The notes beneath the pieces were generated by a model. That model did no database searches, was not told the origin of the DNA, and saw only the letters and a program-made list of their open reading frames with translations. 64,000 nt of DNA from Thermoplasmata archaeon (GTDB taxonomy: Archaea; Thermoplasmatota; Thermoplasmata; Lutacidiplasmatales; UBA184), in the NCBI GenBank assembly GCA_052326305.1, contig JBKQPJ010000015.1, positions 35,208-99,207 of the forward strand, in the 5' to 3' direction. The translations under genes and the position numbers were made by a program. Shown here piece after piece: positions 24,546 to 39,363 of the stretch. The first letter of the stretch is position 1. Every line of letters begins with the position of its first letter.

Positions 24546-24637
24546 GGGTCCCGGACCCGTCCTAGCGCTACGTAAGGTCATAATATGTCCCTCGGACGGT
24601 CGCCGGAACGGGCGCCGGCGCCGGCGGTACGTTACGG

Positions 24638-24647
24638 GATAAATACC
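24638..24647 (+). promoter_or_regulatory. TATA box (GATAAATACC) for tyrS
   Basis: It sits about 25 bp upstream of the GTG start at 24667. Confidence 0.5.
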
Positions 24648-24666
24648 GGCCGGCCTCAGGCTAACC

Positions 24667-25737
24667 GTGGACATCGACGAGCGCGTCGACCGGGTCGTTC
24701 GCTACACCGTCGAGGTGCTGACGCCCGACGAGGTCCGCGCGCTCTTCGAGCGGACCGACCGTCCGAGGGCGTACATCGGGTTCGAGCCGTCCGGCGCACT
24801 CACCGTCGCCCACCTGATCACCGCCCGGAAGATCCGCGACCTCGCCGAGGCCGGATGTGACGTCACCATCCTCCTCGCCGACTGGCACGCCTGGATCAAC
24901 GACAAGCTCGGAGGAAGCCTCGAGCGAATCGACGCGGCGGGTCGGTACATGCAGGCGACCTTCGAGGCGCTCGGAGCCGACCCGGGGCGCGTCCGGTTCC
25001 GGTGGGCCCACGAGCTCTCCGGCGATTCCGACTACTGGGCCCGGGTCGTGCGCGTGGCGAAAGCGACCACGCTCGCCCGCACGAAGCGGGCGATGTCGAT
25101 CATGGGTCGGTCCGAGGAGGAGTCGAACCTCGACACGTCGAAGCTCTTCTATCCGGCCATGCAGGCCGCCGACATCTTCGAGCTCCCCGTCGACCTCGCC
25201 TACGGAGGGATCGACCAGCGACGCGCGCACGTCCTCGCGCGGGAGGTCGCGCACCATTACTCCTGGCCGGTGCCGGCCGCCGTGCACACGCCCCTCCTCT
25301 CGTCGTTGAAGGGCGGTGCCCGGATGGACCCGGTCGAGGGGCTCATCGAAGGAAAGATGTCGAAGTCCGACCCGGGCACGGGGATCCCGATCCCGGCCGA
25401 GCGGTCCGAGATCGCATCGCGGATCGCCTCGGCGTTCTGCGAGGCGAAGACGGTCGAGGGGAACCCGATCGTCGAGGTCGTCCGGTACATCGTCTTCCCG
25501 TGGGAGGGGCGCCTCGCGATCGAGCGCGCCGAGAAGCACGGCGGTCCGGTGGCGTTCGAATCGGTCGACGAATTCCTCTCGGCGTGGCGGGACGGAAAGC
25601 TCCACCCGCAGGATCTCAAGTTGGCCGTCACGGCGGCGCTCGACCGGCTGGTCGAGCCGGCGCGACGGCATTTCCGGGCCCATCCCGATCTCTCGCCCGC
25701 TTCGTTCGCCCCGCGCCCGGAGGCGCGGGCCGGCTGA
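24667..25737 (+). CDS. tyrS: Tyrosine--tRNA ligase, archaeal type
   Basis: Matches IGFEPSGALTVAHL...ILLADWHAWINDK and KMSKS, i.e. a class I aaRS with an archaeal TyrRS N-terminus. GTG start. Confidence 0.9.
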   Translation: MDIDERVDRVVRYTVEVLTPDEVRALFERTDRPRAYIGFEPSGALTVAHLITARKIRDLAEAGCDVTILLADWHAWINDKLGGSLERIDAAGRYMQATFEALGADPGRVRFRWAHELSGDSDYWARVVRVAKATTLARTKRAMSIMGRSEEESNLDTSKLFYPAMQAADIFELPVDLAYGGIDQRRAHVLAREVAHHYSWPVPAAVHTPLLSSLKGGARMDPVEGLIEGKMSKSDPGTGIPIPAERSEIASRIASAFCEAKTVEGNPIVEVVRYIVFPWEGRLAIERAEKHGGPVAFESVDEFLSAWRDGKLHPQDLKLAVTAALDRLVEPARRHFRAHPDLSPASFAPRPEARAG

Positions 25738-26479: not shown

Positions 26480-27838
26480 CTACTGCCCTGCCGATTCCCC
26501 TACAAGCATAGCGGATGGGGCTCCGGCAGGGGCCGGACCGCTGAGGAAGTCGGGCATGACTCCGTGCTCGAAAATCTCGTGGATTAGGACGGTCAGGTTG
26601 TAGGCCAGGATCTTCGCCAACAGCTCGTTGACCTGGGCTGTGGGATTCTTGGATCGTAGCGTCTCCCCGAACTTCCGCTTGAGGGCCGAGAAGACTGACT
26701 CCACATTCGACCGAGCATGGTACTTGGCCTCGAACTCCTCCCGGTGCATCTGGAAGAACAGGTACGCCTTGCGCCATAGAAGCGAATGGCTGCGGGCGCG
26801 CGCCTCCGGTGTTCCGCTCCTCAACGTTGTGCGACCGGTTTGATTGGACCGGAACGGAACGTAGAGGTCGAAACCCATCTCTTCAGCGAGTGCGTAGTTC
26901 GCCCGCGCCGAATACGCCTTGTCACCGAAGACTTCCTTGAGGCAAAGACCCGCCTTCGCTGCCTGCCGGATGAGCGGCTCGAACTGTGGATTGTCCGCTC
27001 CCTCCTTTCCTGTCACGGAAACCGCGGCGATGATGTGTGTCTTGACGCCGGCGAGGGCATGGGCCTTGATCCAGAGGTGTTCCCGCTTCTCCCCGTGCTT
27101 TTCCTCTCTCCACGCGCCGAACGAGGTCGTTTGGATGCCCGTCGAGTCAGGGGCGAAGCCACTTTCCAATGCCGCGACCGGGAGGGCCGACCGTGTGATG
27201 AGTTCGTGCAGTATCGGGGTCACATCCTCCCTATTCAGGACTTCCGAGGAGATCGTGTAGTGCGGGGCCTTCGGCAACTGACCCCGCTCGACGGCGAAGC
27301 CGAAAAGACCCCTCGCCCGCCGGCACGAAAGCTGCGAATAGACTTTCTGGACTGAGCAAAAGAGTTGATCCGCGAGCGCAATCGGCGGCCGCCCGGCGTG
27401 GTGGGGATCCCTCTCCGGCTCGGGGATACCCACGACGAGGTCCCGGAGAAGAATGTCGAAGAGACGAATCTCCTCTGTTTGCGCCCGGTCGTACGCCGCC
27501 CATGCCTGGGGGTAGGTGAGCGGAACTCGCTCGGAGACCGTCTCGCCCGAGGGGAGAGTTGTCTGCTTTTCGAGGTAGAACCGAACGGATGCTGCATGCT
27601 TGCAGGGCAGGCCACGCGAGGAGTAGTCCTGGCAGGAACACTCGGGACCCTTCTCGGCGAGATGCACTCGGTACGAACCCGGTCCGCTCTGAGACTTGAC
27701 CAGGAAGAGATCATCACGCACTTGTTCAATGGCTCCGGGAGTCGCTGCGATGAGCCTGCCCTTCGCGACCCGATCAGCGTCGATACTCCAGCCCCCCCAC
27801 CCCGAGGCTGGACTCGGCGGGCCCTCCAGACTCTGCAT
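26480..27838 (-). CDS. DDE transposase (IS4/IS5-like DDE_Tnp_1) with N-terminal SWIM-type zinc finger
   Basis: Contains CSCQDYSSRGLPCKHAASV (SWIM CxCx(n)CxH), DKAYSARANYALAEEMG, and YHARSNVESVFSALKRKFGETL (R..VE..F..LK). Start is uncertain: the Met at 27838 is preferred and Mets at 28000 and 28231 are alternatives. Confidence 0.75.
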   Translation of the reverse strand: MQSLEGPPSPASGWGGWSIDADRVAKGRLIAATPGAIEQVRDDLFLVKSQSGPGSYRVHLAEKGPECSCQDYSSRGLPCKHAASVRFYLEKQTTLPSGETVSERVPLTYPQAWAAYDRAQTEEIRLFDILLRDLVVGIPEPERDPHHAGRPPIALADQLFCSVQKVYSQLSCRRARGLFGFAVERGQLPKAPHYTISSEVLNREDVTPILHELITRSALPVAALESGFAPDSTGIQTTSFGAWREEKHGEKREHLWIKAHALAGVKTHIIAAVSVTGKEGADNPQFEPLIRQAAKAGLCLKEVFGDKAYSARANYALAEEMGFDLYVPFRSNQTGRTTLRSGTPEARARSHSLLWRKAYLFFQMHREEFEAKYHARSNVESVFSALKRKFGETLRSKNPTAQVNELLAKILAYNLTVLIHEIFEHGVMPDFLSGPAPAGAPSAMLVGESAGQ

Positions 27839-27886
27839 CGTTCCTCCCCACCTACCGTTGCCTACGTGTAGGCTATGGGCCTGCCG

Positions 27887-27893
27887 ATATAAA
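27887..27893 (-). promoter_or_regulatory. Strong TATA (ATATAAA) upstream of the transposase, flanked by two gcctacgtg direct repeats
   Basis: The sequence reads gatataaagg. cgcctacgtg occurs at 27859-27868 and 27902-27911. The first copy is part of the palindrome GCCTACGTGTAGGC at 27860-27873. Confidence 0.45.
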
Positions 27894-27971
27894 GGTGTAT
27901 CGCCTACGTGGGCGCCAACCCATAGGCTATAGTTAAGTAGCCGACCCCCCGTCAAGGAGATTGGAGAGTCC

Positions 27972-28178
27972 GTGCCGGGAATCTTCAGGTCCCCAATCAT
28001 TCTCGTCCGCGAGAAGTCACCCTCGGTCCGCGTGACGATCCCCGAGGGTGTCGCCAAGGCCCTCGGAGCAGAGCCCGGTAAGGACTTGGTTTGGACGCTC
28101 GACCTCAAGGCAGGTTGGGTTACGGTCTCGGCGGAGCCGCCTGAATTTGCTCCCAAGAATGCGTCCAAGCGACGCTGA
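27972..28178 (+). CDS. AbrB/MazE-like (SpoVT/AbrB swapped-hairpin) small DNA-binding protein
   Basis: 68 aa with a GTG start. VRVTIPEGVAKALGAEPGKDLVWTLDLKAGWVTV matches the AbrB-type pattern. Confidence 0.45.
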   Translation: MPGIFRSPIILVREKSPSVRVTIPEGVAKALGAEPGKDLVWTLDLKAGWVTVSAEPPEFAPKNASKRR

Positions 28179-28319
28179 ACCCAAGCCCGACCCGCGGGCC
28201 CTTGGCGCCGCCGATTCCCGTCAGAGCGCACGAAGAACTAGCTCGGAGGCATTGAAAGGACTTTCCTTCCAAAGGAAAGTGCCTAATAGGAAGGTTGTGT
28301 TAGGAATGTCGATTAGAAC

Positions 28320-28676
28320 ATGTCAGCCTCGACAGGAGCGCAGAGACTATTCTCCCAGACGTTCCTTCAAGAAGCGTTGGCTCAGGAAGTTCATCGACTA
28401 CTGTCACTTCAGTACGCCCGAGGGATTCTCGAGGCGCTAGACGAACATCACGAGGGGCTGGACGTCAGGTGGTTTGATGTCAAGGTTGTCGGCGTTGAAG
28501 GGTCGGGCAGGACTGCGTACGTAGTGGTCAAGAAGCTCTCCGCCGCCGGTTGGATATCTTCTAGGGCAGGCACCAAGCCCCAGCGTTGGCTTCTAACCCC
28601 GAAGGGGAAGGAAGCACTGGATCTCGCTCGTCAGGGAGATTCCATAGGAAACGGGGGGCGGGGGCCCGCTAGATGA
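28320..28676 (+). CDS. Putative winged-helix regulator translationally coupled to the C5-methyltransferase
   Basis: 118 aa. Its stop overlaps the methyltransferase start as ATGA. The C-terminal WISSRAGTKPQRWLLTPKGKEAL looks like a wing. Confidence 0.4.
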   Translation: MSASTGAQRLFSQTFLQEALAQEVHRLLSLQYARGILEALDEHHEGLDVRWFDVKVVGVEGSGRTAYVVVKKLSAAGWISSRAGTKPQRWLLTPKGKEALDLARQGDSIGNGGRGPAR

Positions 28677-29923
28677 GGGGGAATCGGTTCGGGTTCGTCG
28701 ACCTCTTTTGTGGAGCGGGCGGGTTTGCCGAGGGGTTCCTACAGGCCGGGACCGACCGTTCGGAGTTCCAACTGCTCGCGGCCTCGGATGTGCATCGCCA
28801 CGCGCAGGCAACTCACGAGTACCGATTCGGCACTCAGCTCGGTATCCCGTACCGGTTCATCCGGAAGGACATCAGGGACCCGGGCCTCCTTCCTGAGGTC
28901 CGCGAAGCGGTTTCATTAGGGTCCGAAGTCGATGTGGTTTGCGGTGGCCCACCCTGCCAGGGATTCTCGGTCTTCGGCGCAAGGCGCCGGGACGACCCGA
29001 GGAACGATCTGTTCCACCCCTACCTACAGATAGTGCATGCGCTCAGGCCGCGATACTTCGTCATGGAGAACGTGCCCGGCTTCGTCTACATGTATCGGGG
29101 TATGGCCGAGCAACGCATCCGCGAGGCGGTCGATAGCCTGAGGCGGCCTGGTTACACCCTAGCGGGACCGATCTTCGTCAATGCGGCGTCGTTTGGGGTT
29201 CCCCAGTCTCGGGAGCGGGTCATCTTCCTGGGATCGCGCGATGACCAACCGAGGATCGGCTCGGTGCCGGTGCCCGAGGGCATCCACTCCCCATCGGTGG
29301 GGGAGGCGATTTCGGACCTCGCGTTTCTCGGGTCGGGCATGAAGGCAATCGACTATGATCCCCGGTTCCCCCCGGCTTCCGATTACCAGAGGGACTCCCG
29401 TCTCGGCCGGTCCAAGACGCGACCGACTTGGGACGGCAGGCTCCAAAACCACGAGTCCTCGCGGCACACTTCCAGGGTCCTGACACGGTTTCGGCTCGTT
29501 CCGAAAGGGCACTCGACCAAGGATGTGAAAGAGGTGCTGGTCCGCGAAGGGGTCGACTCCGGCAAGAAATGGTGCGTGCGCATTGACGATGCCGACCCGT
29601 CCTTCACGCTCACGACCATTCCGGACGACTTCATCCACTACTCGCAGGACAGGAGCCTGACCGTGCGTGAGTGTGCGCGCCTCCAGTCCTTCGATGATTC
29701 GTTCGTGTTCCTCGGTCCCCGGACAACGGGTGGCGGAGGCGCGGGAAACAAGGTGCGGAACACCGATCTTCCCCAGTATACACAAGTCGGAAACGCCGTG
29801 CCACCGCTAATGGCGCGGGGCATCGCGTTGACGCTTCTCAGGAATCTGGAGAAGACATCCGCTCACCCAGATGGGCCCGAACGACCTTCAGGAACCGCGC
29901 GAGTTCCTTTGGTCGCGGTCTGA
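28673..29923 (+). CDS. DNA (cytosine-5)-methyltransferase
   Basis: Motif I FCGAGGF, motif IV PPCQGFS, motif VI ENVPGF, and a C-terminal QVGNAVPP are present. Confidence 0.9.
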   Translation: MRGNRFGFVDLFCGAGGFAEGFLQAGTDRSEFQLLAASDVHRHAQATHEYRFGTQLGIPYRFIRKDIRDPGLLPEVREAVSLGSEVDVVCGGPPCQGFSVFGARRRDDPRNDLFHPYLQIVHALRPRYFVMENVPGFVYMYRGMAEQRIREAVDSLRRPGYTLAGPIFVNAASFGVPQSRERVIFLGSRDDQPRIGSVPVPEGIHSPSVGEAISDLAFLGSGMKAIDYDPRFPPASDYQRDSRLGRSKTRPTWDGRLQNHESSRHTSRVLTRFRLVPKGHSTKDVKEVLVREGVDSGKKWCVRIDDADPSFTLTTIPDDFIHYSQDRSLTVRECARLQSFDDSFVFLGPRTTGGGGAGNKVRNTDLPQYTQVGNAVPPLMARGIALTLLRNLEKTSAHPDGPERPSGTARVPLVAV

Positions 29924-30623
29924 CGTTCCCCTCCTGACCGTCGCCGAACAGGAAGAACAGGTCGCGTGCCTGGGCGGCCTCCACGATGTCAAAGTCCATT
30001 TCCTTGCGAAGGGCAGCCTGCGTTGAGAGGCAGTGGGGGTGGCCCTTCGACATCAACATCGTCCGTCCCATGAAATCGAAGAACTCCGACTGGGAAATCC
30101 TCACCTTGCTGTTGACGAGAAGAAGGGGCACGATTGACGAACCCGGCGGGAGATGGGTGACGACGTCGGCCGGCCACCGGGCAGTTTGTCTATTTACCAC
30201 CCCATCCGCACCGAGAATGTACCCGATGGCGACGTCGGTCTTCTCCGAAGGTTCTGATTGAGTCGGCTCTCCGGCCTTCCATAGCGTGTAAGTCCCGTAA
30301 GTCGTGGAGACCTCATTGAAGACGAAGAGGGAGGGCCAATCGTGCACGAACTCGAACGCCAAGTGGGTCAGGTAGTCCTGGAAGAGGGCACCGACGATGT
30401 TGCGGGACAGGTTCTGATTGAGGGAGAACTCCGTCTTCGTATTCCTCCGCCCTAGCCAGTTGTAGCCGTCCACGAGTTCCGTCAAGTGTTCTGAAGGTGC
30501 GCGCCCTGCTCGGACATCGTAGCATGATTGGATCTTGGCGAGCCTCATCGCTAGCTCGTCATGTCCGGGCGTCCCGTCATTGACGAGCACCTCGCGAATA
30601 TACACCGACAGCAGATGGGCCAT
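29838..30623 (-). CDS. Putative type II restriction endonuclease, cognate of the adjacent methyltransferase (the enzymatic call is speculative)
   Basis: 261 aa unique ORF. It is convergent with the M gene and its 3' end overlaps it by 86 bp. It has a possible D...(N/E)xK core (TDVAIGY...LLLVNSK). The call rests on position alone. Confidence 0.35.
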   Translation of the reverse strand: MAHLLSVYIREVLVNDGTPGHDELAMRLAKIQSCYDVRAGRAPSEHLTELVDGYNWLGRRNTKTEFSLNQNLSRNIVGALFQDYLTHLAFEFVHDWPSLFVFNEVSTTYGTYTLWKAGEPTQSEPSEKTDVAIGYILGADGVVNRQTARWPADVVTHLPPGSSIVPLLLVNSKVRISQSEFFDFMGRTMLMSKGHPHCLSTQAALRKEMDFDIVEAAQARDLFFLFGDGQEGNVRPRPKELARFLKVVRAHLGERMSSPDS

Positions 30624-30750
30624 CCGGGGTCCATCTGCGAATCTGTAGATAGTCGTTCACACGCCTTAGCGGCCGGTTCTGTGTCCATGTGGCAATTCGC
30701 CGGCAGGGGTGGCGGTGCGGTTACCTATCGTGCTAGACTGACCTGAAAGT

Positions 30751-31224
30751 GTGGCGGATCGGTTGACTCACGCCCAGAGGAGCCGACTGATGTCTCGAAT
30801 ACGGGGTAGGGACACGTTTCCGGAGCTGGCACTCCGGAAAGCCCTGCGCAGACGGGGAGTGCGGTACCGGTCAAACCAGCGGGTCCACGGCATCCGTGTC
30901 GATTTGGTCCTGCGGGGAACGAAGACCCTCGTGATGGTCCAGGGCTGTTTCTGGCACGGCTGCCCCCGTCACTATATCGCTCCGAAATCCAACTCCCGAT
31001 TCTGGAAGAAGAAGATTGTAGCGAACAGAGAGAGGGACCGGTGGCAGGCGGCAATCCTCAGCGCGATGGGGTGGCAGGTGGTCGTGTTGTGGGAGCACGC
31101 CCTCAGGACCGACCCGGCCCGCGCCGTGGAACGATTGATAACCACCGCGCCTCTCCCGTGTAGGGCGGCCCGGCAGGGGGATGCCGGTTACCTGTCAGAT
31201 GAGCGGGGAATGGAGATCCGATAA
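30751..31224 (+). CDS. vsr: Very-short-patch repair endonuclease Vsr
   Basis: TFPELALRKALRRRGVRYR...MVQGCFWHGCPRHY gives a full Vsr signature. Confidence 0.85.
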   Translation: MADRLTHAQRSRLMSRIRGRDTFPELALRKALRRRGVRYRSNQRVHGIRVDLVLRGTKTLVMVQGCFWHGCPRHYIAPKSNSRFWKKKIVANRERDRWQAAILSAMGWQVVVLWEHALRTDPARAVERLITTAPLPCRAARQGDAGYLSDERGMEIR

Positions 31225-33337
31225 GCAGGGCGCGGAGGTCTTCCGCCCCCGAGCCCGCGTCATCAACGTCCTCGGCCGCGACCTGATCCAGAACCCGGTG
31301 GTCGCGATCCAGGAGCTGGTCAAGAACGCGTACGACGCGGACTCCCACCGCATCCGGCTCACTTTCGAGGGACCGCTGGAGAAGGGGCTCGGCGGCCTCA
31401 CCATCGAGGACGACGGGGATGGGATGACCCTCGAGACCGTCCGCACCGCGTGGATGGAACCGGCGACGATCGCGAAGCGCCGCCAGACCCGGACCCGGGC
31501 GGGCCGTCGGGTTACCGGGGAGAAGGGGATTGGCCGGTTCGCTTCCGCCCGCATAGCCAGCCAGCTCGAACTCGACTCCGTTGCCCGGGAGAACGGTCGC
31601 CGGGTTATGGCGCATTTCAACTGGGGAGAGTTCGAGGGCGAGGACCGGTACCTCGACGAGATCCGATGCCGCTGGGAAGAAGGGGCTGCTCCTAGGGGGC
31701 GCGGCCACGGGACGATCCTTCGACTCCGGCAGTTCACCCAGAAGTGGAACGAGGAGAACCTGAGGAATCTGCGGGTCCAGTTATCGAGGTTGCTGCCTCC
31801 CACCGGACCGAAGGCAGACTTCGAGATCGGGTTCGCGGTCGGGGGAACTCTGGGGAAGCGCCTCTCGGGCCCGATCGAGAGGCCCACGTTCATCGAGCAC
31901 GCCCGCTACCAACTACGAGGTCGCGTCGAAGCCGACGGCTCGGTGACGGCGGAGGTATCGTACCGGTCGAGAAGCGAGCCGTTCGTCGAGAAGGGGGGAG
32001 CCCCAGTCCGTGTTGTCATCGAGCGGGAGGGGGAGGAGGACCGACCGCCGACATGCGGTCCGTTCGAGTTCGACATCCGTGTTTGGGACCGCGAGCCCGA
32101 GGACATGAGGGAGCTCGCCAAAGCGGCCGGGTCGACCCTCAGGGACGTGAGGATGGACCTCGACGAGCTGAGCGGGCTCCAAGTCTACCGGGACCGGTTC
32201 CGCATCGTCATGCAAACGCGGGATTGGCTGGGCCTCGACCTTCGCCGGGTCCAGAATCCTAGCCTACGCCTGAGCAACAACCAGATCGTAGGTCACGTCC
32301 AGATCGAATCCGACCGGAACACCGGGCTCGTGGACCAGTCCAACCGCCAGGCGCTCGTAGACAGCCCGCAGCTCGACGACTTCGAGGAAGCAATCCTGTT
32401 CCTGCTCAACCGCCTGGAGGTGTTCCGGCGCCTCAAGAGGCGGAGCCCTGAGAGACCGCCGCCCCGTGCCAGCCTGCTCGAAAAGTTCAACCTGACCGAA
32501 CTCCAAGACTACGTAGCGAAGTCGGACCACTCCAAGGACGAGAAGCTCACCTCCATCATCCAGTCGACGGCGGCCGGAATCAAGACCGGCCTCGGCCAGG
32601 TCCGGGAGATTGTATCACGCTACCGACGCCTGGCAACCCTCGGTACCCTCGTCGACGTGATTCTGCACGAAGGGCGGACGCCCATCGCCGCGATCTCCAA
32701 TTCCGTGGAGATTCTGAAGAAGAGCCTGGCCGGAGGACTCCCCGCACGCGAGGCCGCCGAGGTCAAGCACCAGCTCGATGTGGTCGACCACCAGGTCCAA
32801 GTCCTAACCCAACTCTTCGACCGGGTGGCTCCGTTCAGCGGACGGGCCCGGGGCCGCGTCGAGGTAGCCCCCCTGGAGGACATCATCGCTCGGGCGTTCG
32901 CGGTTCACGCCGGTAGGATCGAGAAGGAGGGGGTGCGGGTCGAACTGCCGTCGGGGCAGACAACCATCCGGATGGACCCCATCGATTTGGAGCTCCTCTT
33001 CCTGAATCTCATCGACAACGCCCTCTACTGGCTACAGAAGGTCCCTGCGGGAAAGCGAGCCATCCGGGTAGAGGTGGCCCGAACCGATGGTAGGGTCGAG
33101 GTCGTGTTCTCAGACAGTGGACCAGGGGTCCAACCGGAGATTGCTGACATGATCTGGGACCCCTGGTTCACCACGAAGCCGGGGGGGATCGGCCTCGGGC
33201 TTACCATCGCCGGGGAGACGGCCGCCGAGCACGACGCGACCCTAGGTCTCTCCGAGAAGGGCCCGCTCCCGGGCGCGACGTTCGTTGTCACCTTCAACTC
33301 TCCCGGCGGTGAAGCCACCCGCGAAGGAGTGGAGTAG
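31181..33337 (+). CDS. Fusion protein: N-terminal paraMORC/MutL-like GHKL ATPase (HATPase_c_3-type) plus C-terminal histidine kinase (HisKA + HATPase_c)
   Basis: The N-terminal GHKL has an N-box (IQELVKNAYDAD), G1 (IEDDGDGM) and G2 (GEKGIGRFASA). The C-terminal region has an H-box (HEGRTPIAAISNSVEIL) and a classical kinase ATPase (FSDSGPGV...GGIGLGLTIA). It overlaps the vsr 3' end by 44 bp. Confidence 0.8.
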   Translation: MPVTCQMSGEWRSDKQGAEVFRPRARVINVLGRDLIQNPVVAIQELVKNAYDADSHRIRLTFEGPLEKGLGGLTIEDDGDGMTLETVRTAWMEPATIAKRRQTRTRAGRRVTGEKGIGRFASARIASQLELDSVARENGRRVMAHFNWGEFEGEDRYLDEIRCRWEEGAAPRGRGHGTILRLRQFTQKWNEENLRNLRVQLSRLLPPTGPKADFEIGFAVGGTLGKRLSGPIERPTFIEHARYQLRGRVEADGSVTAEVSYRSRSEPFVEKGGAPVRVVIEREGEEDRPPTCGPFEFDIRVWDREPEDMRELAKAAGSTLRDVRMDLDELSGLQVYRDRFRIVMQTRDWLGLDLRRVQNPSLRLSNNQIVGHVQIESDRNTGLVDQSNRQALVDSPQLDDFEEAILFLLNRLEVFRRLKRRSPERPPPRASLLEKFNLTELQDYVAKSDHSKDEKLTSIIQSTAAGIKTGLGQVREIVSRYRRLATLGTLVDVILHEGRTPIAAISNSVEILKKSLAGGLPAREAAEVKHQLDVVDHQVQVLTQLFDRVAPFSGRARGRVEVAPLEDIIARAFAVHAGRIEKEGVRVELPSGQTTIRMDPIDLELLFLNLIDNALYWLQKVPAGKRAIRVEVARTDGRVEVVFSDSGPGVQPEIADMIWDPWFTTKPGGIGLGLTIAGETAAEHDATLGLSEKGPLPGATFVVTFNSPGGEATREGVE

Positions 33338-33340
33338 ACG

Positions 33341-34432
33341 ATGGCGGCCGCACCCATCCCGGCTCCCGCCGGCGATTCCTGGCGGATCGCAGTCGTGGAG
33401 GATGAGGAGGATATCCGGGGGCAGATTTGTCACTGGCTGGGGAGGATGGACCCGGTCGAGGGCAAGTCGTTCCAACCCACCCCGTTCCCGGACTTCGACG
33501 GGGCCTGGGCTGGGCTCATGGATTGGAAGTTCGACATTGTCATCCTCGACATCTTCCGAGGACACGGGGGAGTGCCTGCCAGCCCGGGGCTCGATATCAT
33601 GGAGCGAATCAAGCGGACCGCCTTCGTCCCGCTCATCGTCTACACCGCGCTCCCGGAGCGGGTCACGGGACTTCGTTCTCCCATGGTTCGCGTTGTGGGC
33701 AAGGTCTCGGGCCTGGGTGCCCTAGAAGGCGAGGTCCGGCAGTTCCTCGCGTGGCGATTACCCCAGCTCGCGCGGGCGCTGAGAGCCACGTTCGATGACA
33801 CGCTTCGGGACTACATGTGGAGGTTCGTGGACGCCCACTGGGATCGGTTCGAGTCGATGGTCGACAAACCGGACTTCGGACGATTGGTAGTACAACGCCT
33901 CTCGGAGGCATACACCGCTGACGGCTCGAGGGGAGTCCTAGGTGCAGCCTACGGCCCGGTGGCTACGACCGGGCCCCCCGCGGACAAGGTCCATCCCGCC
34001 TCGGTCTACGTCATGCCGGTCCCTACCGGCGTCCTCCGTCTGGGAGACATCCGCGTGCGCCGGGCAGGTGAGAGCCCACCGAAGTATCTCGTGGTCCTTC
34101 AACCGAGCTGCGATACCGTCCGGATCGCACCCGACGCAGAAGGGCAGGGTGCGAGGGACCCCAACGTCGACCGTGTCCTCTGCGCGCGGGCGTACCCACG
34201 GCCCCCGCACAAGTCGGATCACGATTATCCACTTCCGGCGTTCCTCGCGGTTCCGGACCTGATGGTCGAGTTCCACGACCTCGAGATTGCTCCGATCGAT
34301 GACCTGTTGAGTCTCGACTGTGTAGCGAGGGTGGCGAGCCCGTTCGCCGAGCAGCTCGCCGCCAAGTTCGCTGCCTACATCGGACGTATCGGAACGCCAG
34401 AGATAGAAGCGCCCCCGGCCCCTGCGACGTAG
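33341..34432 (+). CDS. Response-regulator receiver (REC) domain fused to an uncharacterised C-terminal effector domain (about 240 aa)
   Basis: The REC region reads IAVVEDEEDIRGQ...FDIVILDIFRGHGG...PLIVYTALPE, with the phospho-acceptor Asp. The C-terminal domain matches nothing I recognise. It starts 3 bp after the HK stop. Confidence 0.75.
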   Translation: MAAAPIPAPAGDSWRIAVVEDEEDIRGQICHWLGRMDPVEGKSFQPTPFPDFDGAWAGLMDWKFDIVILDIFRGHGGVPASPGLDIMERIKRTAFVPLIVYTALPERVTGLRSPMVRVVGKVSGLGALEGEVRQFLAWRLPQLARALRATFDDTLRDYMWRFVDAHWDRFESMVDKPDFGRLVVQRLSEAYTADGSRGVLGAAYGPVATTGPPADKVHPASVYVMPVPTGVLRLGDIRVRRAGESPPKYLVVLQPSCDTVRIAPDAEGQGARDPNVDRVLCARAYPRPPHKSDHDYPLPAFLAVPDLMVEFHDLEIAPIDDLLSLDCVARVASPFAEQLAAKFAAYIGRIGTPEIEAPPAPAT

Positions 34433-34471: not shown

Positions 34472-35764
34472 GTGTGGCAAACCTATTACCAGGAAGCGAG
34501 TATCAACCCCGGCGTGCGCTCTTCCGCCGATGAATGTCGCCGCCCGATTCCCTGCGGTATTGACTTGTTTTCGGGTGCCGGCGGGTTCGGCCTGGGATTC
34601 GAAGCGGCGGGCTTACCCGTCGTGGCCTCCCTAGACAAGGATGCGGATGCCGTAGCCACCCTCGCCGCGAACCCCCCCATTGGCCCCCGGCTTGTCTTCC
34701 ACACCGACATCCGTTCGTTTGGCCCATTAGCGATGGACAAAGCAATCGAGGGCCTTTCTCCCCGTTACCGAGTCGACTTCCTCATCGGCGGGCCGCCATG
34801 CCAGGGCTGGAGCAGGGTCGGACGAGGGAAGCTACGGTCACTCGGGCGTATCGGGTCCACTCCCGCGCCCTTCGCCGAGGAGCGGAACAGGTTGTATCGT
34901 CCGTTCCTCCGGTATGTGTCCCACTTCCGGCCGCGCGTCGTCCTCCTGGAGAACGTGCGGGGAATGGAGTGCTACTACGGGCACGATGGAACGAAGGCGA
35001 TCACGACAGCACTGGACTCTCTGGGGTACCGGACTAAGGTGGTTCCCCTCGACGCCGCCGACTTCGGGGTGCCCCAGCAGAGAAGGCGACTCGTTATTGT
35101 GGGCGTTAGAGAGGACCTGGGACTGGAGCTGGACACACCGATTGGCCCACCCGCCGGATTGGGCATGGATGGCGCCGCACCGACAGTCCGCGACGCGATC
35201 GGCGATCTCCCGTGGGTCCCGTCGGGGAACCAGAGGGATGTGATGCCTTACCGGAAGCTGGAGGATGCCTCTGCGTACCTCAGCCTCCTCCGCCCCGGAT
35301 GGATGAACGGCTCGGTCACTGCCCATATCACCCGGCCCCACCGCCCGGAGGACCGCGAGGCGTTCCGATCGATGAAACAAGGCGGGATCTACTCTGACCT
35401 ACCCGACCGTCTCAAGCGGTATCGCGACGACATATTTGCCGACAAATATCGGAGGTTGGAGTGGGACAAGCCCAGCCCGTGCCTGACGGCCCACCTCGCG
35501 AAGGACGGCTACTCGCACATCCACCCGAGTCAGACGAGGACGATCTCTGTACGGGAGGCGGCGAGGATTCAGGGGTTCCCCGATTGGTACGTCATAGCCG
35601 GGTCGATGGGGAGCCAATTCCGCCAGATTGGAAACTCAGTCCCCCCTCTGCTAGCGTACGCGCTCGCGATTGCTGTACGGAATTTCCTCGGAGTGAAGTC
35701 GGAAATCTCGTGGGACGTTCTATCGTGTTCCGTCTTGCAGACTGGTACGGTCACGAACGAGTGA
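34472..35764 (+). CDS. DNA (cytosine-5)-methyltransferase (second copy)
   Basis: Contains FSGAGGFGLGF, PPCQGWS, ENVRGM and QIGNSVPP. Confidence 0.9.
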   Translation: MWQTYYQEASINPGVRSSADECRRPIPCGIDLFSGAGGFGLGFEAAGLPVVASLDKDADAVATLAANPPIGPRLVFHTDIRSFGPLAMDKAIEGLSPRYRVDFLIGGPPCQGWSRVGRGKLRSLGRIGSTPAPFAEERNRLYRPFLRYVSHFRPRVVLLENVRGMECYYGHDGTKAITTALDSLGYRTKVVPLDAADFGVPQQRRRLVIVGVREDLGLELDTPIGPPAGLGMDGAAPTVRDAIGDLPWVPSGNQRDVMPYRKLEDASAYLSLLRPGWMNGSVTAHITRPHRPEDREAFRSMKQGGIYSDLPDRLKRYRDDIFADKYRRLEWDKPSPCLTAHLAKDGYSHIHPSQTRTISVREAARIQGFPDWYVIAGSMGSQFRQIGNSVPPLLAYALAIAVRNFLGVKSEISWDVLSCSVLQTGTVTNE

Positions 35765-36994: not shown

Positions 36995-38074
36995 TCACAA
37001 TTCTTGATTTTCTCTTGTAACAGCTCGTGGCTTTTGTTTCGGGTCCATCGATATCGTTGTAGCCGATTCGACTTTCACTGCCGTCGCCGGAGGCGGTGGA
37101 CGAAGCACCGGGCGTTCGATTAGGCCGACCAGGGCGCTGCCGAACATCGCTTCGAGGTCCAGGGCGTTGATTCTCTCCTGAGCGGTACTCTCGAACTCCT
37201 TGAGCGCAGGGTCCTCGGAGAACTTCTTGAGATCCCGGAAGAAGTCGCCTAGGCCGGCCTCTTCCGCCAGTCCCTCTAGCTCGGCGTCGCTCGGGAAAGT
37301 GATCATGACTCCGCCGTACGTCCGGAGTTGCGCTAGCGCGGCCTCAATGGTCAGTTTCAGCACCCCTGCGGAGGGGACTTCCTTGGGAAGGTGCTCGAAA
37401 TCTTCACTCTCAAAGACGTTGATGAAGACAGTGCGCCGCTCGTTCCCATCCACAGAGAGTATCACCATCGACTGCCGCCGAATTAGACCTCGCGCTCTCA
37501 ACCACGCTAGGTCCGAGGCAAGCCGGTCGGTGTTCTCGAACTCAACCTGTTGGATCGATTCTGCGAGTCGATCCGCAGGAATTTCCACTCGGGTCTTTTC
37601 CTCCCGGACCATGTCAGAGAACTCGGGCGGTACAATCACGCCCAACGCCCTTTTCCCCGGCTCAGGCGTTCGAAGCAGCTTGACGAAGGTGGAGTCCAAA
37701 GAACCGGTAAGTAGGCCCGAGACGACACGCTGAAGGTCGATTCTGGCGACTGTTTCGAAATCCCTTCCCTTTAGGTGAATCTCACCGGAGGGATGGAACG
37801 AGATGTGTAGACCTGCCGGCAGGAGGCCGGGCATCGGAATGACGTACTTTCCGCCATCGGTGGCCGTCACGGTTTTCAATACGCGCAGACCCGGCGAAGT
37901 AGCCCCCGGCGCGGCCGTCGTGGGCACAACCCGAAGTTCCTTCTCCCTGGACGGCATTTGCTGGGGGAAGGAATCGGACCTAAAGGATAGCTCGGAGTCG
38001 CAATACGGCTTCACTTGTCGAATCTGTTCAGTTCTCGGGATATGGCCGCCATCGGAAGCCAAGCCGTACAACAC
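36995..38074 (-). CDS. Hypothetical protein (359 aa), last gene of a three-gene island operon
   Basis: Unique composition with no motif I recognise. It lies 30 bp downstream of the preceding gene. Confidence 0.5.
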   Translation of the reverse strand: MLYGLASDGGHIPRTEQIRQVKPYCDSELSFRSDSFPQQMPSREKELRVVPTTAAPGATSPGLRVLKTVTATDGGKYVIPMPGLLPAGLHISFHPSGEIHLKGRDFETVARIDLQRVVSGLLTGSLDSTFVKLLRTPEPGKRALGVIVPPEFSDMVREEKTRVEIPADRLAESIQQVEFENTDRLASDLAWLRARGLIRRQSMVILSVDGNERRTVFINVFESEDFEHLPKEVPSAGVLKLTIEAALAQLRTYGGVMITFPSDAELEGLAEEAGLGDFFRDLKKFSEDPALKEFESTAQERINALDLEAMFGSALVGLIERPVLRPPPPATAVKVESATTISMDPKQKPRAVTRENQEL

Positions 38075-38104
38075 AACCCGAAGGGCTGAGAGGCACCGGG
38101 CATT

Positions 38105-38895
38105 TCATGCATGGGCCGTTAGGTGCTCCAAGAAGTCCTCCTTTTCCTCCCAGAAGCCAACGATGTCGGCCCGCCTCTTGAGGGTGGATACTATCGGTCC
38201 CGTCCAAACGTCGTCTTCTACTGAATCGTCCAGTAGGCAAGCAGACCGGAACTGGAGCCCCGTATCCCGAATTTCGAGGAACGCGACGATGGCCTTGTTA
38301 ACCAGTGTGCTAGCCCAACCGGAACTCAATGACGAGAAGGCATACATCAACGTCCGTGGCTGCGAAGCACTCAGAGGTTCAAGGTCGAAATCAAAGACCC
38401 AGTGTTTCCCACCGGCTCCTGTATAGTCCCTCCAACGTGCGTGCTCGATATGGGCCGAAGTCAGCCATCCCGCAACGTCGTCAGCGAACCCAAGTTTAGA
38501 TCGAGCCTTCGCCGTCATTGCGATGTGCTGGGCTGACCTCGCCGCCTCGGTGACCCGGGTGAGTGCTTCGGACAGATCACCTATCGGCGCCCTTGCTACA
38601 ATCTCACTGCCATGCGCCGACACTCCGAGCCTCCTCAGAGTGGTTTCAAAGAACCAGTTCTGGCGCGATCCCTCCTTGAGTTCCACTCCGTGGAGGAATA
38701 GGAAGCCGACTGATTCGCCCATGTCGGACAGTTCGACGGTCTGGCCACGAATCGAAATGCGCACCTGTATCGGGTCGTTGTCCTGGTTTAGGAACGGCGT
38801 GGTGAGCACACAGTCCTCCCCATCCTGCTCGACTGAGAACACGGCCTCCAAGTGAGAGAGGTACTGGCCGAGGACGCGCGTACAGTCAGTCACGG
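38105..38895 (-). CDS. Hypothetical protein (about 263 aa), middle gene of the operon
   Basis: GTG start (VTDCTRV...) preceded by GGAGGA at -8. It overlaps the upstream stop as GTGA. I do not use the track ORF's N-terminal extension out to 39115. Confidence 0.5.
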
Positions 38896-39363
38896 GAAAT
38901 CCTCCATTGACGTCTGAGTGTGGATTGGGTATGGGCCGGGAGCGATCCTGCACTCCTTTAGAAAGTCCACGAGCGCCCCGTCGGGGTCGCCCGACCTGAC
39001 TTCGGAAACCGGATAGGAGGGGCTGTCTGCGAACCTCTCGTCTGGATAGTGCTTGTGCGGTCCCTTCATACGGGAGTTCGTAACGGGGTCGAGATGGCCT
39101 GGCTTGTAATCCCACCGGCGAATAATCACGCTGTTACGAACCACCAGAGCGAATCCGTAACGATTCGGCTTGCCCGGGCTGAATTTCCTGCTTACCCAGC
39201 CTCGAATCGTCATCGGGGTTCCATCCTCACCGATGACCGGGAGCACGAGGTACCTGCTGCCGTCGGCCCTCGAATCCCATTGGACCGGACCGGCAAGCTG
39301 TTTGGGCAGCTCGTAGAGGTAGTCAGCCTCTCCCTTGCTGATAGGGGCCGCTCCCTCTGCCAT
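38890..39363 (-). CDS. Hypothetical protein (157 aa), first gene of the operon
   Basis: Non-repetitive ORF translationally coupled to the next gene. Confidence 0.45.
   Translation of the reverse strand: MAEGAAPISKGEADYLYELPKQLAGPVQWDSRADGSRYLVLPVIGEDGTPMTIRGWVSRKFSPGKPNRYGFALVVRNSVIIRRWDYKPGHLDPVTNSRMKGPHKHYPDERFADSPSYPVSEVRSGDPDGALVDFLKECRIAPGPYPIHTQTSMEDFP

What the first reader, a model, noticed from the sequence alone, without database searches (positions are those of the whole stretch)
31181..33337. Protein with two GHKL ATPase modules (MORC/MutL-like plus histidine kinase)
Within one 718 aa polypeptide there are two separate Bergerat-fold signatures. The N-terminal one is ELVKNAYDAD / IEDDGDGM / GEKGIGRF. 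The C-terminal one is the HK catalytic domain.

There is no TM or obvious sensor domain. Together with the weak linker (the 200-430 region), this suggests that the MORC-like module itself is the sensor, for example for DNA-state sensing.
Basis: seen in the sequence. Interest (0 to 1): 0.7.

Follow-up and report, generated by a model that had tools for sequence, protein, structure and literature searches.

The report
MORC-like histidine kinase beside DNA methylase
The gene does encode one protein with two ATP-binding modules (a MORC/MutL-type ATPase fused to a histidine kinase), but it belongs to a widespread, already described and experimentally untested gene set (DNA methylase, this kinase, an unusual response regulator) that most likely acts as a restriction-like defence switch.

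Summary
ORF 31181-33337 (718 aa) carries an N-terminal MORC/MutL-type GHKL ATPase and a C-terminal HisKA-type histidine kinase, with all catalytic residues invariant across 49 homologues. It has no transmembrane segment.

The gene sits in a vsr / kinase / REC-protein / C5-methylase operon on a low-GC mobile island in a Thermoplasmata archaeon. At least 582 species genomes encode a relative. In 79 reference loci the REC protein is adjacent in 69 of 73, a C5-methylase is within 6 kb in 63, and Vsr in 31.

This architecture and context were described computationally in 2021 (Bellieny-Rabelo et al., PMC8011034). I found no experiments.

- The REC protein's C-terminal domain, which has no sequence match, resembles PemK/MazF toxins at fold level only.
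- Two variant loci have a small REC-like protein plus an HNH nuclease in place of REC-X.
- N6/N4 methylases can replace the C5 enzyme.

Most likely this is a methylation-linked defence phosphorelay. It is a new (archaeal) member of a known kind, and its mechanism is unproven.

The parts
30751..31224 (+). vsr: very-short-patch repair endonuclease gene, first gene of the operon. Its 3' end overlaps the kinase start by 44 nt.
   Evidence: NCBIfam TIGR00632 E 6.2e-33, above cut-off; PHROG endonuclease 2e-39; 48% identical to the Vsr beside the Pyxidicoccus homologue.
31181..33337 (+). The flagged ORF: a soluble paraMORC-type GHKL ATPase fused to a histidine kinase (718 aa).
31223..31780 (+). N-terminal GHKL (Bergerat) ATP-binding domain, aa 15-200. 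Motif I is E45-N49-D52-D54, motif II D77xGxG81, motif III G113xKGxGRF120, motif IV G177-T178.
31823..32440 (+). It is the S5-type transducer half of the MORC/MutL ATPase module plus the conserved segment containing R356-V-Q-N-P-x-L-R-L-S-N-N-Q368.
32474..32839 (+). Long helices, aa 432-553: coiled-coil connector and DHp (HisKA-type) domain. The phospho-accepting H496 is at nt 32666-32668, in the H-box H-E-G-R-T-P.
   Evidence: Pfam HisKA E 1.5e-5; H496, G498, R499, P501 invariant and T500 at least 90% conserved; H-box variants H[E/D]GRTP; PDB hits FixL, ZraS, HK853.
32861..33298 (+). C-terminal catalytic ATP-binding (CA) domain of the kinase, aa 561-706, with N-box N613, G1 D645xGxG649 and G2 G669xGLGL674.
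33341..34432 (+). REC-X: the partner response-regulator-like protein (363 aa), starting 4 nt after the kinase stop codon.
   Evidence: Adjacent on the same strand in 69 of 73 reference loci, median gap -4 nt.
33380..33751 (+). Receiver (REC) domain of REC-X, aa 14-137. Acidic pair E20-D21, phospho-acceptor D70 (nt 33548-33550), T102, K121.
33758..33952 (+). Long helical hairpin, aa 140-204, connecting REC to the output domain.
   Evidence: AF2 model, helices 140-173 and 177-204, pLDDT about 86-95.
33968..34390 (+). C-terminal beta-rich output domain of REC-X, aa 210-350. It has no sequence match to any known family. Conserved motifs: G235-D236, P255-x-C257-D258, S333-P-F-x-E337, G348-R349-x-G351. 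Candidate PemK/MazF-like fold.
   Evidence: No Pfam or PDB sequence hit. 1,987 cluster representatives carry it, always at about aa 200-385 of 365-420 aa proteins. Foldseek against viral structures gives about ten PemK/MazF-like hits, best E 1.8e-3 with target-normalised TM 0.68. hhalign against a MazF profile is not significant.
34472..35764 (+). C5-cytosine DNA methyltransferase (MT2), last gene of the operon, 40 nt after REC-X. Probable modification partner.
   Evidence: Pfam DNA_methylase E 6.7e-56; PADLOC DrmMII-like 3e-94. It is closer than MT1 to the methylases adjacent to the homologues (201 vs 110 bits for L003, 172 vs 137 for L004).
30700..30726 (+). Copy 1 of the bipartite motif CCGGCAGGGG-N9-GGTTACCT, 25 nt upstream of the vsr start. 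Candidate operator or promoter element; its role is untested.
   Evidence: Exactly two matches in 64 kb against 0 expected in 100 shuffles.
31170..31193 (+). Copy 2 of the same motif (N6 spacer), spanning the kinase ATG.

Best explanation
The ORF is the sensor kinase of a conserved, horizontally mobile gene set linked to DNA methylation. In this window the set is the operon vsr / MORC-like kinase / REC-X / C5-methylase.

Proposed mechanism:
1. The methylase marks the host's own DNA. (Inferred from homology.)
2. The N-terminal MORC/MutL-type ATPase (GHKL plus S5 transducer) takes the place of a sensor domain. Like MORC and MutL, it engages DNA or a DNA-bound partner through ATP-driven dimerisation. 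(The fold and intact ATP site are shown; the DNA input is inferred.)
3. That conformational change travels through the long helices to the HisKA-type DHp. The CA domain then phosphorylates H496, or the kinase switches between kinase and phosphatase states. (The catalytic residues are shown; the activity is inferred.)
4. The phosphoryl group moves to D70 of REC-X, whose gene is translationally coupled. (The intact REC site and tight linkage are shown; the transfer is inferred.)
5. Phosphorylation releases the C-terminal beta-rich output domain. I predict this is a toxic or nucleolytic effector, possibly with a PemK/MazF-like fold. (Weakest step.)

The net effect would be a restriction-like or abortive-infection defence, gated by a phosphorelay instead of by direct coupling of recognition to cleavage. 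Vsr only offsets the mutagenic cost of 5-methylcytosine.
For: Both ATPase sites, H496 with the H-E/D-x-x-T motif, and the REC residues D21, D70, T102 and K121 are invariant or nearly so.

Linkage across 79 reference-genome loci: REC-X is adjacent in 69 of 73, with a median gap of -4 nt; a C5-methylase is present in 63 of 79 and directly adjacent in 47; Vsr is present in 31 of 79. The same core appears in four metagenomic or genomic loci at 44-63% identity and on Hymenobacter and Campylobacter plasmids.

The methylase is exchangeable, as in R-M systems. The C5 enzymes are only 26-33% identical to each other, while the kinases are 44-63% identical to the window protein. N6_N4 or N6 methylases replace the C5 enzyme in L077 and L083.

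In two loci that lack REC-X, the kinase is followed by a small REC-like protein (Response_reg is its top weak hit, E 0.005-0.008) and then an HNH endonuclease.

The N-terminus resembles the GHKL N-terminus of BbrUII/HgiDII-family restriction enzymes (NF050001, E 4e-18; PADLOC REase_II, 3.5e-10).

Foldseek gives PemK/MazF-like hits for REC-X.

Precedent: Detocs shows that a His-Asp phosphorelay can drive an anti-phage effector directly (bioRxiv 10.1101/2023.01.24.525353).
Against: No experiment exists for any member (literature searches).

The output domain has no sequence match. Profile-profile comparison with genuine MazF/PemK toxins is not significant (E 0.37), and MazF's invariant Arg-Pro has no counterpart in REC-X. 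The fold assignment rests on Foldseek E-values of 2e-3 to 1e-2 against one library.

Neither protein has a large hypervariable region that could match the swapped methylase specificities, so how methylation status would be read is unexplained.

In 16 of 79 loci no C5-methylase lies within the 6 kb flanks. At least two of those have another methylase type instead.

The system is absent from PADLOC v2.

The HNH variant is seen in only 2 of 79 loci, and the REC identity of its small protein is weak.
Confidence: 0.5

Rival explanations
1. It is an ordinary regulatory two-component system. The kinase senses an intracellular cue, and REC-X is a DNA-binding regulator that tunes expression of the adjacent methylase, vsr or restriction genes, much like a controller protein of an R-M system. 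This is essentially the speculation of the 2021 paper.
For: Most response regulators are transcription factors. The 2021 authors proposed signalling that controls R-M systems (PMC8011034). A bipartite motif occurs twice, ahead of vsr and at the kinase start, and could be an operator. Beta-rich DNA-binding output domains such as LytTR do exist (general knowledge).
Against: No HTH, winged-helix or LytTR signature is found in any of 22 members, even at E up to 10, and there is no PDB sequence match. The output domain's only non-REC structural analogues are toxins. Variant loci put an HNH nuclease where the output domain would be. The module travels with methylases of unrelated type and orientation, which fits poorly with a regulator tied to a specific promoter.
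Confidence: 0.2
2. It is an addiction (post-segregational killing) module. The kinase/phosphatase continuously holds a toxic REC-X in the off state. If the island or the methylase is lost, REC-X is unleashed, which stabilises the mobile element instead of defending against phage.
For: The H-box has the E/DxxT motif of bifunctional kinase/phosphatases (role of the motif from the literature, summarised). The window copy lies on a low-GC island next to a transposase. Relatives sit on conjugative Campylobacter pTet plasmids next to vapD. The output domain has toxin-like fold hits.
Against: There is no evidence that the two proteins differ in stability. The strong association with defence-island genes and with methylases fits self/non-self discrimination equally well. 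This rival overlaps with the main explanation and is hard to separate from it computationally.
Confidence: 0.12
3. It is a MutL-like accessory of very-short-patch repair. The N-terminal MutL-type ATPase assists Vsr at T:G mismatches that arise from deaminated 5-methylcytosine, and the kinase reports that damage.
For: The vsr gene overlaps the kinase start by 44 nt. The N-terminal domain hits MutL by sequence and by structure. E. coli MutL is known to stimulate Vsr (from my own knowledge, not checked here).
Against: Vsr is present in only 31 of 79 loci. It tracks the C5-methylase, not the kinase. No Vsr was detected in the two loci found to have N6 or N4 methylases (L077, L083). The closest structural match is MORC, not MutL. 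No MutL C-terminal dimerisation or endonuclease domain is present.
Confidence: 0.08
4. It is a nucleotide-pool sensor. The extra GHKL domain measures intracellular NTP levels, as the 2021 paper also speculated, and DNA is not the input.
For: The domain has an intact ATP-binding site. The idea was suggested in PMC8011034.
Against: The full GHKL plus S5 transducer module with a catalytic Glu (E45) is the hallmark of ATP-hydrolysing DNA clamps (MORC, MutL, topoisomerases), not of ligand sensors. The context consists of DNA-modification genes.
Confidence: 0.05

Closest known systems
HEF_HK / Response_reg_2 'two-component-system-like' elements (Bellieny-Rabelo, Pretorius and Moleleki, Genome Biol Evol 2021; PMC8011034)
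   Same: The architecture is the same: N-terminal HATPase_c_3, a DHp with His followed by an acidic residue, a C-terminal HATPase_c, soluble. The partner is the same: an adjacent RR-like protein with intact REC residues and no recognised output domain. The context is the same: a C5-methylase (usually upstream), frequent Vsr, R-M genes, and a proposed descent from paraMORCs. The Hymenobacter relative L100 shows the vsr / dcm / kinase / RR-like order the paper describes.
   Different: Neither the window proteins nor any of the 14 relatives scanned hit PF19191 or PF19192; they score just below threshold on HisKA and Response_reg instead. The window family keeps the Thr four residues after the His, which PF19191 is reported to lack. 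The paper analysed bacteria only, whereas this copy is in an archaeon. In this window the methylase lies downstream.
Prokaryotic MORC and paraMORC GHKL ATPases of restriction-modification systems (Iyer, Abhiman and Aravind, Biol Direct 2008; PMC2292703)
   Same: GHKL plus S5 module with intact ATP motifs. Genomic association with DNA methylases, Vsr and endonucleases. Sporadic distribution across bacteria and archaea.
   Different: The paraMORC1-5 families described there are fused to, or sit next to, nucleases, TIR domains or helicases. None is described with a DHp/CA kinase module. I did not determine which paraMORC family is closest.
Detocs (defensive two-component system; Rousset et al., bioRxiv 10.1101/2023.01.24.525353)
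   Same: A soluble histidine kinase plus a response regulator whose output is an effector instead of a DNA-binding domain. The His and Asp residues are required for defence, and the effector domains are modular.
   Different: The Detocs sensor has TPR repeats, not a MORC-like ATPase. Detocs has a third 'buffer' REC protein. Its effector is usually a PNP ATP-nucleosidase, and it has no methylase partner. No sequence relationship was found (PADLOC gives no Detocs hit).
BbrUII/HgiDII-family type II restriction enzymes (NCBIfam NF050001)
   Same: The N-terminal ~180 residues (GHKL domain) are similar: E 4e-18, profile positions 8-185. Two PADLOC REase_II models also hit aa 28-134. To my recollection (not checked here), these enzymes partner C5-methylases.
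   Different: The score of 65 bits is far below the 550-bit family cut-off, and only the N-terminus aligns. The rest of those enzymes is replaced here by the kinase module, with the presumed effector on a separate REC protein.
PemK/MazF/Kid toxins (type II toxin-antitoxin endoribonucleases)
   Same: There is fold-level resemblance to the REC-X output domain: about ten Foldseek hits, with target-normalised TM scores up to 0.68. As far as I recall the MazF topology, the order of strands and the C-terminal helix is the same, and both begin with a G-D-hydrophobic motif at the first strand.
   Different: No significant sequence or profile similarity. The invariant MazF residues (Arg29-Pro30, Pro50) are not matched. 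REC-X has its own invariant Cys257-Asp258. There is no antitoxin gene; control would be through phosphorylation.

Membership tests
HEF_HK / Response_reg_2 TCS-like elements (PMC8011034) | Kinase architecture: N-terminal HATPase_c_3, then a DHp with His followed by Glu/Asp, then C-terminal HATPase_c; soluble. | tested here: met
   Pfam domains; H496-E497 with H[E/D] in all 49 homologues; no TM segment.
HEF_HK / Response_reg_2 TCS-like elements (PMC8011034) | An adjacent gene encoding an RR-like protein with conserved REC catalytic residues and no other known domain. | tested here: met
   [not shown]
HEF_HK / Response_reg_2 TCS-like elements (PMC8011034) | Neighbourhood enriched in C5-cytosine methylase, Vsr and R-M genes. 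| tested here: met
   The window has vsr upstream and a C5-MTase downstream. Across 79 loci, a C5-MTase is present in 63 and Vsr in 31.
HEF_HK / Response_reg_2 TCS-like elements (PMC8011034) | A match to the Pfam models PF19191 (HEF_HK) and PF19192 (Response_reg_2). | tested here: inconclusive
   There is no hit at E up to 10 for the window proteins. There is also none for any relative scanned, including Citrobacter, Enterobacter, Hymenobacter, Campylobacter, Roseobacter and Streptococcus, and none in the precomputed Pfam calls. I could not obtain a positive control. So either the models are narrow or missing from this copy, or this whole clade is a sister group. PF19191 is reported to lack the Thr that this family conserves.
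MORC / paraMORC GHKL ATPases (PMC2292703) | A GHKL domain with intact ATP-binding and hydrolysis motifs. | tested here: met
   E45, N49, D52, D77xGxG, G113xKGxG and G177-T178 are invariant.
MORC / paraMORC GHKL ATPases (PMC2292703) | An S5-fold transducer domain directly after the GHKL domain. | tested here: met
   [not shown]
MORC / paraMORC GHKL ATPases (PMC2292703) | The MORC-specific sequence motif that separates true MORCs from paraMORCs, and assignment to one of paraMORC1-5. | not tested
Classical HisKA-type sensor histidine kinase | H-box H-E-x-x-T/N-P, an N-box, and G1 and G2 boxes in a DHp plus CA unit. | tested here: met
   HEGRTP; N613; D645xGxG; G669xGLGL, all invariant or nearly so. 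PDB profile hits to FixL, ThkA, ZraS and HK853 at E 1e-20 to 1e-29. The Pfam HisKA score is 25.4 against a cut-off of 26.9.
Classical HisKA-type sensor histidine kinase | Autophosphorylation and phosphotransfer to the partner REC domain. | not testable with these tools
   This needs biochemistry.
Detocs | The three-gene set DtcA (TPR-kinase), DtcB (stand-alone REC) and DtcC (REC-effector, mostly PNP). | tested here: not met
   There are no TPR repeats, no stand-alone REC gene and no PNP domain. The resemblance is functional only.
BbrUII/HgiDII-family restriction enzyme (NF050001) | A full-length match above the family cut-off of 550 bits. | tested here: not met
   65.3 bits, and only profile positions 8-185 align.
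PemK/MazF toxin family (for the REC-X output domain) | Sequence or profile similarity, including the conserved Arg-Pro and Pro-x-Thr/Ser catalytic region. | tested here: not met
   No Pfam PemK hit. hhalign against 12 genuine toxins gives E 0.37 over 8 columns.
PemK/MazF toxin family (for the REC-X output domain) | The MazF/CcdB-type beta-barrel fold with a C-terminal helix. | tested here: inconclusive
   [not shown]

The most novel reading that the evidence does not exclude
The system could be a new class of methylation-keyed immune phosphorelay. A MORC-like ATP-driven DNA clamp would detect DNA that lacks the methylase's mark, either directly or by watching the methylase. It would convert that into His-to-Asp phosphotransfer, which switches on a previously unrecognised toxin domain with a MazF-like fold but a new active site built around Cys257-Asp258. 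Restriction would then be executed by signalling instead of by a recognition-coupled nuclease. That would be a prokaryotic precedent for MORC ATPases acting as sensors of the epigenetic state of DNA.
Probability: 0.25. Interest if true: 0.8.

Novelty: new member of a known kind. Interest (0 to 1): 0.45.

Why it matters
This gene set is common. At least 582 species-level genomes encode a relative of the kinase, 1,987 protein clusters (at 50% identity) carry the output domain, and copies sit on conjugative Campylobacter pTet plasmids and in several archaeal lineages. Yet nobody has tested what it does.

If the proposed mechanism holds, it would be only the second known case, after Detocs, of a two-component phosphorelay acting directly as an immune effector pathway. 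It would be the first such case tied to DNA methylation. It would also give a tractable bacterial or archaeal model for how MORC-type ATPases, which silence transposons in animals and plants, read DNA state.

It matters for annotation as well. These genes are currently labelled 'ATP-binding protein', 'sensor histidine kinase', 'CheY-like' or 'hypothetical'. The deposited start codon for this very protein removes invariant N-terminal residues.

Tried and rejected
1. Pfam PF19191/PF19192 as a membership test. There was no hit for the window proteins or for any relative, including the genera named in the paper, and I had no positive control. The test is uninformative.

2. The paper's supplementary tables, to match strains. 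They are not held.

3. A DNA search of complete E. coli genomes with the Citrobacter-branch locus. No match.

4. Identifying the REC-X output domain by sequence. A PDB profile search gave nothing better than E 0.98. Pfam on 22 members at E up to 10 gave nothing.

5. Identifying it by domain shuffling. A profile search of 1.84 billion representatives found the domain only in the same REC-hairpin architecture.

7. Homology of the output domain to MazF/PemK by profile-profile comparison. Rejected as not significant. Only a fold-level lead remains.

8. A cytidine-deaminase-like reading of H218-P-A-E plus P-x-C257. Rejected on inspection of the alignment: the Glu is Ser in the window clade and a second Cys is not conserved.

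9. A PD-(D/E)xK nuclease reading of the output domain. No conserved (D/E)xK, and the candidate Lys is Asn in the window clade.

10. A search for a hypervariable target-recognition region in either protein. None larger than about 30-40 residues.

11. Confirming the archaeal host from flanking genes. Only weak archaeal-type KaiC and WtpC hits, so I rely on the source labels of the identical database proteins.

12. The REC-X HMM and hhalign on the small proteins of the HNH-variant loci. Not significant. Pfam Response_reg is the top but sub-threshold hit.
Full report
**1. The observation**

The ORF at 31181-33337 (+) is real: ATG start, 718 aa.

Pfam finds two separate GHKL domains: HATPase_c_3 at aa 41-155 (E 5.7e-19) and HATPase_c at aa 599-706 (E 6.2e-21). 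A HisKA phospho-acceptor domain lies at aa 488-549 (E 1.5e-5, 1.5 bits under the curated cut-off). By sequence against solved structures, the C-terminal 230 residues match FixL, ZraS and HK853-type kinases, and aa 31-132 match MutL.

An alignment of 49 homologues (43-85% identical) shows that every catalytic residue of both ATP sites is invariant. In the N-terminal site these are E45, N49, D52, D54, D77xGxG81, G113xKGxGRF120 and G177. In the kinase they are H496, N613, D645xGxG649 and G669xGLGL674.

There is no transmembrane segment: the maximum Kyte-Doolittle 19-residue window is 0.99.

**2.

The "weak linker" at 200-430 is not a linker. In the AlphaFold2 model (pLDDT 79, pTM 0.72) residues 215-420 form a folded alpha/beta region, with block pLDDT values mostly between 77 and 96. 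Only aa 421-431 are predicted disordered. Residues 321-400 are among the most conserved in the protein, including an almost invariant R-V-Q-N-P-x-L-R-L-S-N-N-Q stretch.

So the N-terminal half is a complete MORC/MutL-type ATPase module.

**3. Genomic context in the window**

The gene sits in a low-GC island: about 26-39.5 kb at 58-65% GC, against 72-75% in the flanks. The island begins with a DDE transposase.

On the + strand there is a tight four-gene unit:
- vsr (30751-31224; TIGR00632, E 6e-33), whose end overlaps the kinase start by 44 nt
- the kinase (31181-33337)
- a 363-aa ORF starting 4 nt after the kinase stop (33341-34432)
- a C5-cytosine DNA methyltransferase 40 nt further on (34472-35764; Pfam E 7e-56)

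A second C5-methylase (28673-29923), with two small unknown ORFs, lies upstream and looks like a separate module. Identical copies of the kinase and of the 363-aa protein are in the database, labelled as coming from a Thermoplasmata archaeon MAG on a 442-kb contig.

**4. The partner protein, REC-X**

The 363-aa protein has 58 homologues in the word-indexed search. Its model is confident (pLDDT 89.4, pTM 0.82) and shows three parts: a REC domain (aa 14-137), a long helical hairpin (aa 140-204) and a beta-rich C-terminal domain (aa 210-350).

The C-terminal domain has its own invariant residues (G235-D236, P255-x-C257-D258, R349, G351). It has no detectable sequence relative in Pfam or the PDB. 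A profile search of 1.84 billion representative proteins finds it in 1,987 clusters. In full-length hits it always starts at about residue 200 of a 365-420 aa protein, so it occurs only in this architecture.

**5. Conservation of the gene set**

The kinase family is large. The top 120 hits in the 5.8-billion-protein collection all have the double-GHKL architecture. These span Acidobacteriota, Actinomycetota, Chloroflexota, Verrucomicrobiota, Planctomycetota, Cyanobacteria, Bacillota, Pseudomonadota and Bacteroidota. Archaeal hosts include Methanoregula, Bathyarchaeota and Methanobacteriota.

In the 79 reference loci where my script found the kinase:
- REC-X lies directly downstream on the same strand in 69 of the 73 loci with room for it. 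The median gap is -4 nt, which suggests translational coupling.
- A C5-methylase lies within 6 kb in 63 loci and is directly adjacent in 47.
- Vsr is present in 31 loci.

**6. Features that bear on mechanism**

(a) The methylases beside different homologues are only 26-33% identical to each other, while the kinases are 44-63% identical to the window protein. In some loci an N6_N4 or N6 methylase replaces the C5 enzyme (L077, L083). The methylase is therefore an exchangeable partner, as in R-M systems. Vsr follows the C5-methylase, not the kinase.

(b) In the two loci where REC-X is replaced (L081, L083), the kinase is followed by a 210-250 aa protein and then by an HNH endonuclease (E 2e-6 and 2e-7). 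The small protein carries REC-type motifs, and Response_reg is its best, sub-threshold, Pfam hit (E 0.005-0.008).

(c) The kinase N-terminus resembles the GHKL N-terminus of BbrUII/HgiDII-type restriction enzymes.

(d) The H-box is H-[E/D]-G-R-T-P, the motif of bifunctional kinase/phosphatases.

(e) Neither protein has a large hypervariable region that could encode a sequence specificity matched to the varying methylases. This is the main unexplained point.

(f) A Foldseek search of the REC-X model against viral protein structures, where REC domains are rarer, returns about ten PemK/MazF-family toxins besides REC-containing proteins. The best has E 1.8e-3 and a target-normalised TM score of 0.68. 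As far as I recall the MazF topology, the order of strands and the C-terminal helix in the model agrees with it.

I tested (f) independently by building a profile from 12 annotated PemK/MazF toxins. hhalign against the REC-X output domain is not significant (E 0.37), and MazF's catalytic Arg-Pro is not matched. The toxin-fold idea is therefore a lead, not a finding.

**7. Most likely mechanism (confidence about 0.5)**

The methylase marks self DNA. The MORC/MutL-type module stands in for a sensor domain and engages DNA, or a DNA-bound partner, through ATP-driven dimerisation. This is transmitted through the long helices to the DHp/CA unit, so that H496 is phosphorylated or the kinase/phosphatase balance shifts. 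The phosphoryl group passes to D70 of REC-X. The freed output domain then acts as a toxic or nucleolytic effector, giving restriction-like or abortive-infection immunity.

Shown here: the folds, the intact catalytic residues, the tight genetic linkage, the exchangeable methylase, the defence-island context and the HNH-bearing variants.

Inferred: the DNA input, the direction of the switch, and the effector's activity.

Detocs provides experimental precedent for a phosphorelay that drives a defence effector directly.

Rival explanations:
- a regulatory two-component system controlling R-M gene expression (0.2)
- an addiction module (0.12)
- a MutL-like helper of Vsr repair (0.08)
- an NTP-pool sensor (0.05)

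**8. Comparison with what is known**

This architecture and its context were described computationally by Bellieny-Rabelo, Pretorius and Moleleki (Genome Biol Evol 2021, PMC8011034). They reported HATPase_c_3 + HEF_HK + HATPase_c kinases next to Response_reg_2 proteins in 91.6% of 644 regions, with C5-methylases and Vsr nearby. They linked the kinases to Iyer and Aravind's paraMORCs and suggested that the HATPase_c_3 domain is the sensor.

The window gene set meets every architectural and contextual criterion of that description. The one formal test I could not settle is a match to their Pfam models PF19191 and PF19192. Neither the window proteins nor any relative I scanned hits them. I had no positive control. 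PF19191 is also reported to lack the Thr that this clade conserves. The clade may therefore be a HisKA-like sister branch.

I found no experimental study of any member, and the system is not in PADLOC v2.

**9. Verdict**

The finding is real, but the architecture is not new. It is a new (archaeal) member of a known, uncharacterised kind.

- structural confirmation of a full MORC-type GHKL plus S5 module
- correction of the "linker"
- the operon structure and translational coupling
- a large census that includes archaea and plasmids
- methylase-type swapping
- the REC plus HNH variant
- a tentative toxin-like fold for the output domain

Interest is moderate (0.45). The system is widespread, untested and mechanistically intriguing, but a specialist who knows the 2021 paper would not be surprised by the architecture itself.

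Noticed in passing
window 30700-30726 and 31170-31193 (+): A bipartite motif, CCGGCAGGGG-N(6-9)-GGTTACCT, occurs exactly twice in 64 kb, against 0 expected in 100 shuffles. One copy is 25 nt upstream of the vsr start and the other spans the kinase ATG. It may be an operator or promoter element, or a small duplication.
   Followed up: partly
window 28320-30623: A second, apparently independent methylase module lies upstream. It has a 118-aa ORF (28320-28676; weak PadR-like hit, E 0.11) overlapping the start of a C5-methylase (28673-29923). A convergent 261-aa ORF (29838-30623, minus strand) with no database match overlaps the methylase end by 86 nt and may be its restriction enzyme.
   Followed up: partly
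window 26480-28231 (-) and the GC profile at 26-39.5 kb: A DDE transposase with a SWIM zinc finger marks the left edge of a ~13.5 kb low-GC island (58-65% GC against 72-75% in the flanks). No tRNA gene and no clear flanking direct repeats were found.
   Followed up: partly
window 31181-31297: The database copy of this protein (P0001, 'MAG: ATP-binding protein [Thermoplasmata archaeon]') is annotated as 679 aa. That start is 39 codons downstream and removes residues R22-N38, which are invariant across homologues. The deposited start codon is probably wrong.
   Followed up: partly
window 36995-39115 (-): Two more island genes have unknown function: a 359-aa ORF with no hits, and a 336-aa DUF1828 protein that matches PHROG 5059 (E 4e-19). 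They could be further defence or mobile-element cargo.
   Followed up: no
L081:5946-7372 and L083:8160-9427: In these variant systems REC-X is replaced by a 210-250 aa REC-like protein with a coiled-coil tail, followed by a ~215-aa HNH endonuclease. L083 also has an N6 methylase upstream and a large RHS-repeat protein downstream.
   Followed up: partly
L099 (Campylobacter coli pTet plasmid NZ_AP028372.1) and hits H44-H80: The kinase / response regulator / dcm module is carried on many ~51-55 kb conjugative Campylobacter jejuni and C. coli tetracycline-resistance (pTet) plasmids, next to vapD and a recombinase. This could be a convenient experimental model.
   Followed up: partly
[not shown]
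   Followed up: no
window 22311-24674 (-): A 787-aa ORF just outside the island has a C-terminal archaeal-type KaiC domain (TIGR03877 and TIGR03881, E 1e-10 to 1e-11, below cut-off). This is weakly consistent with an archaeal host.
   Followed up: no
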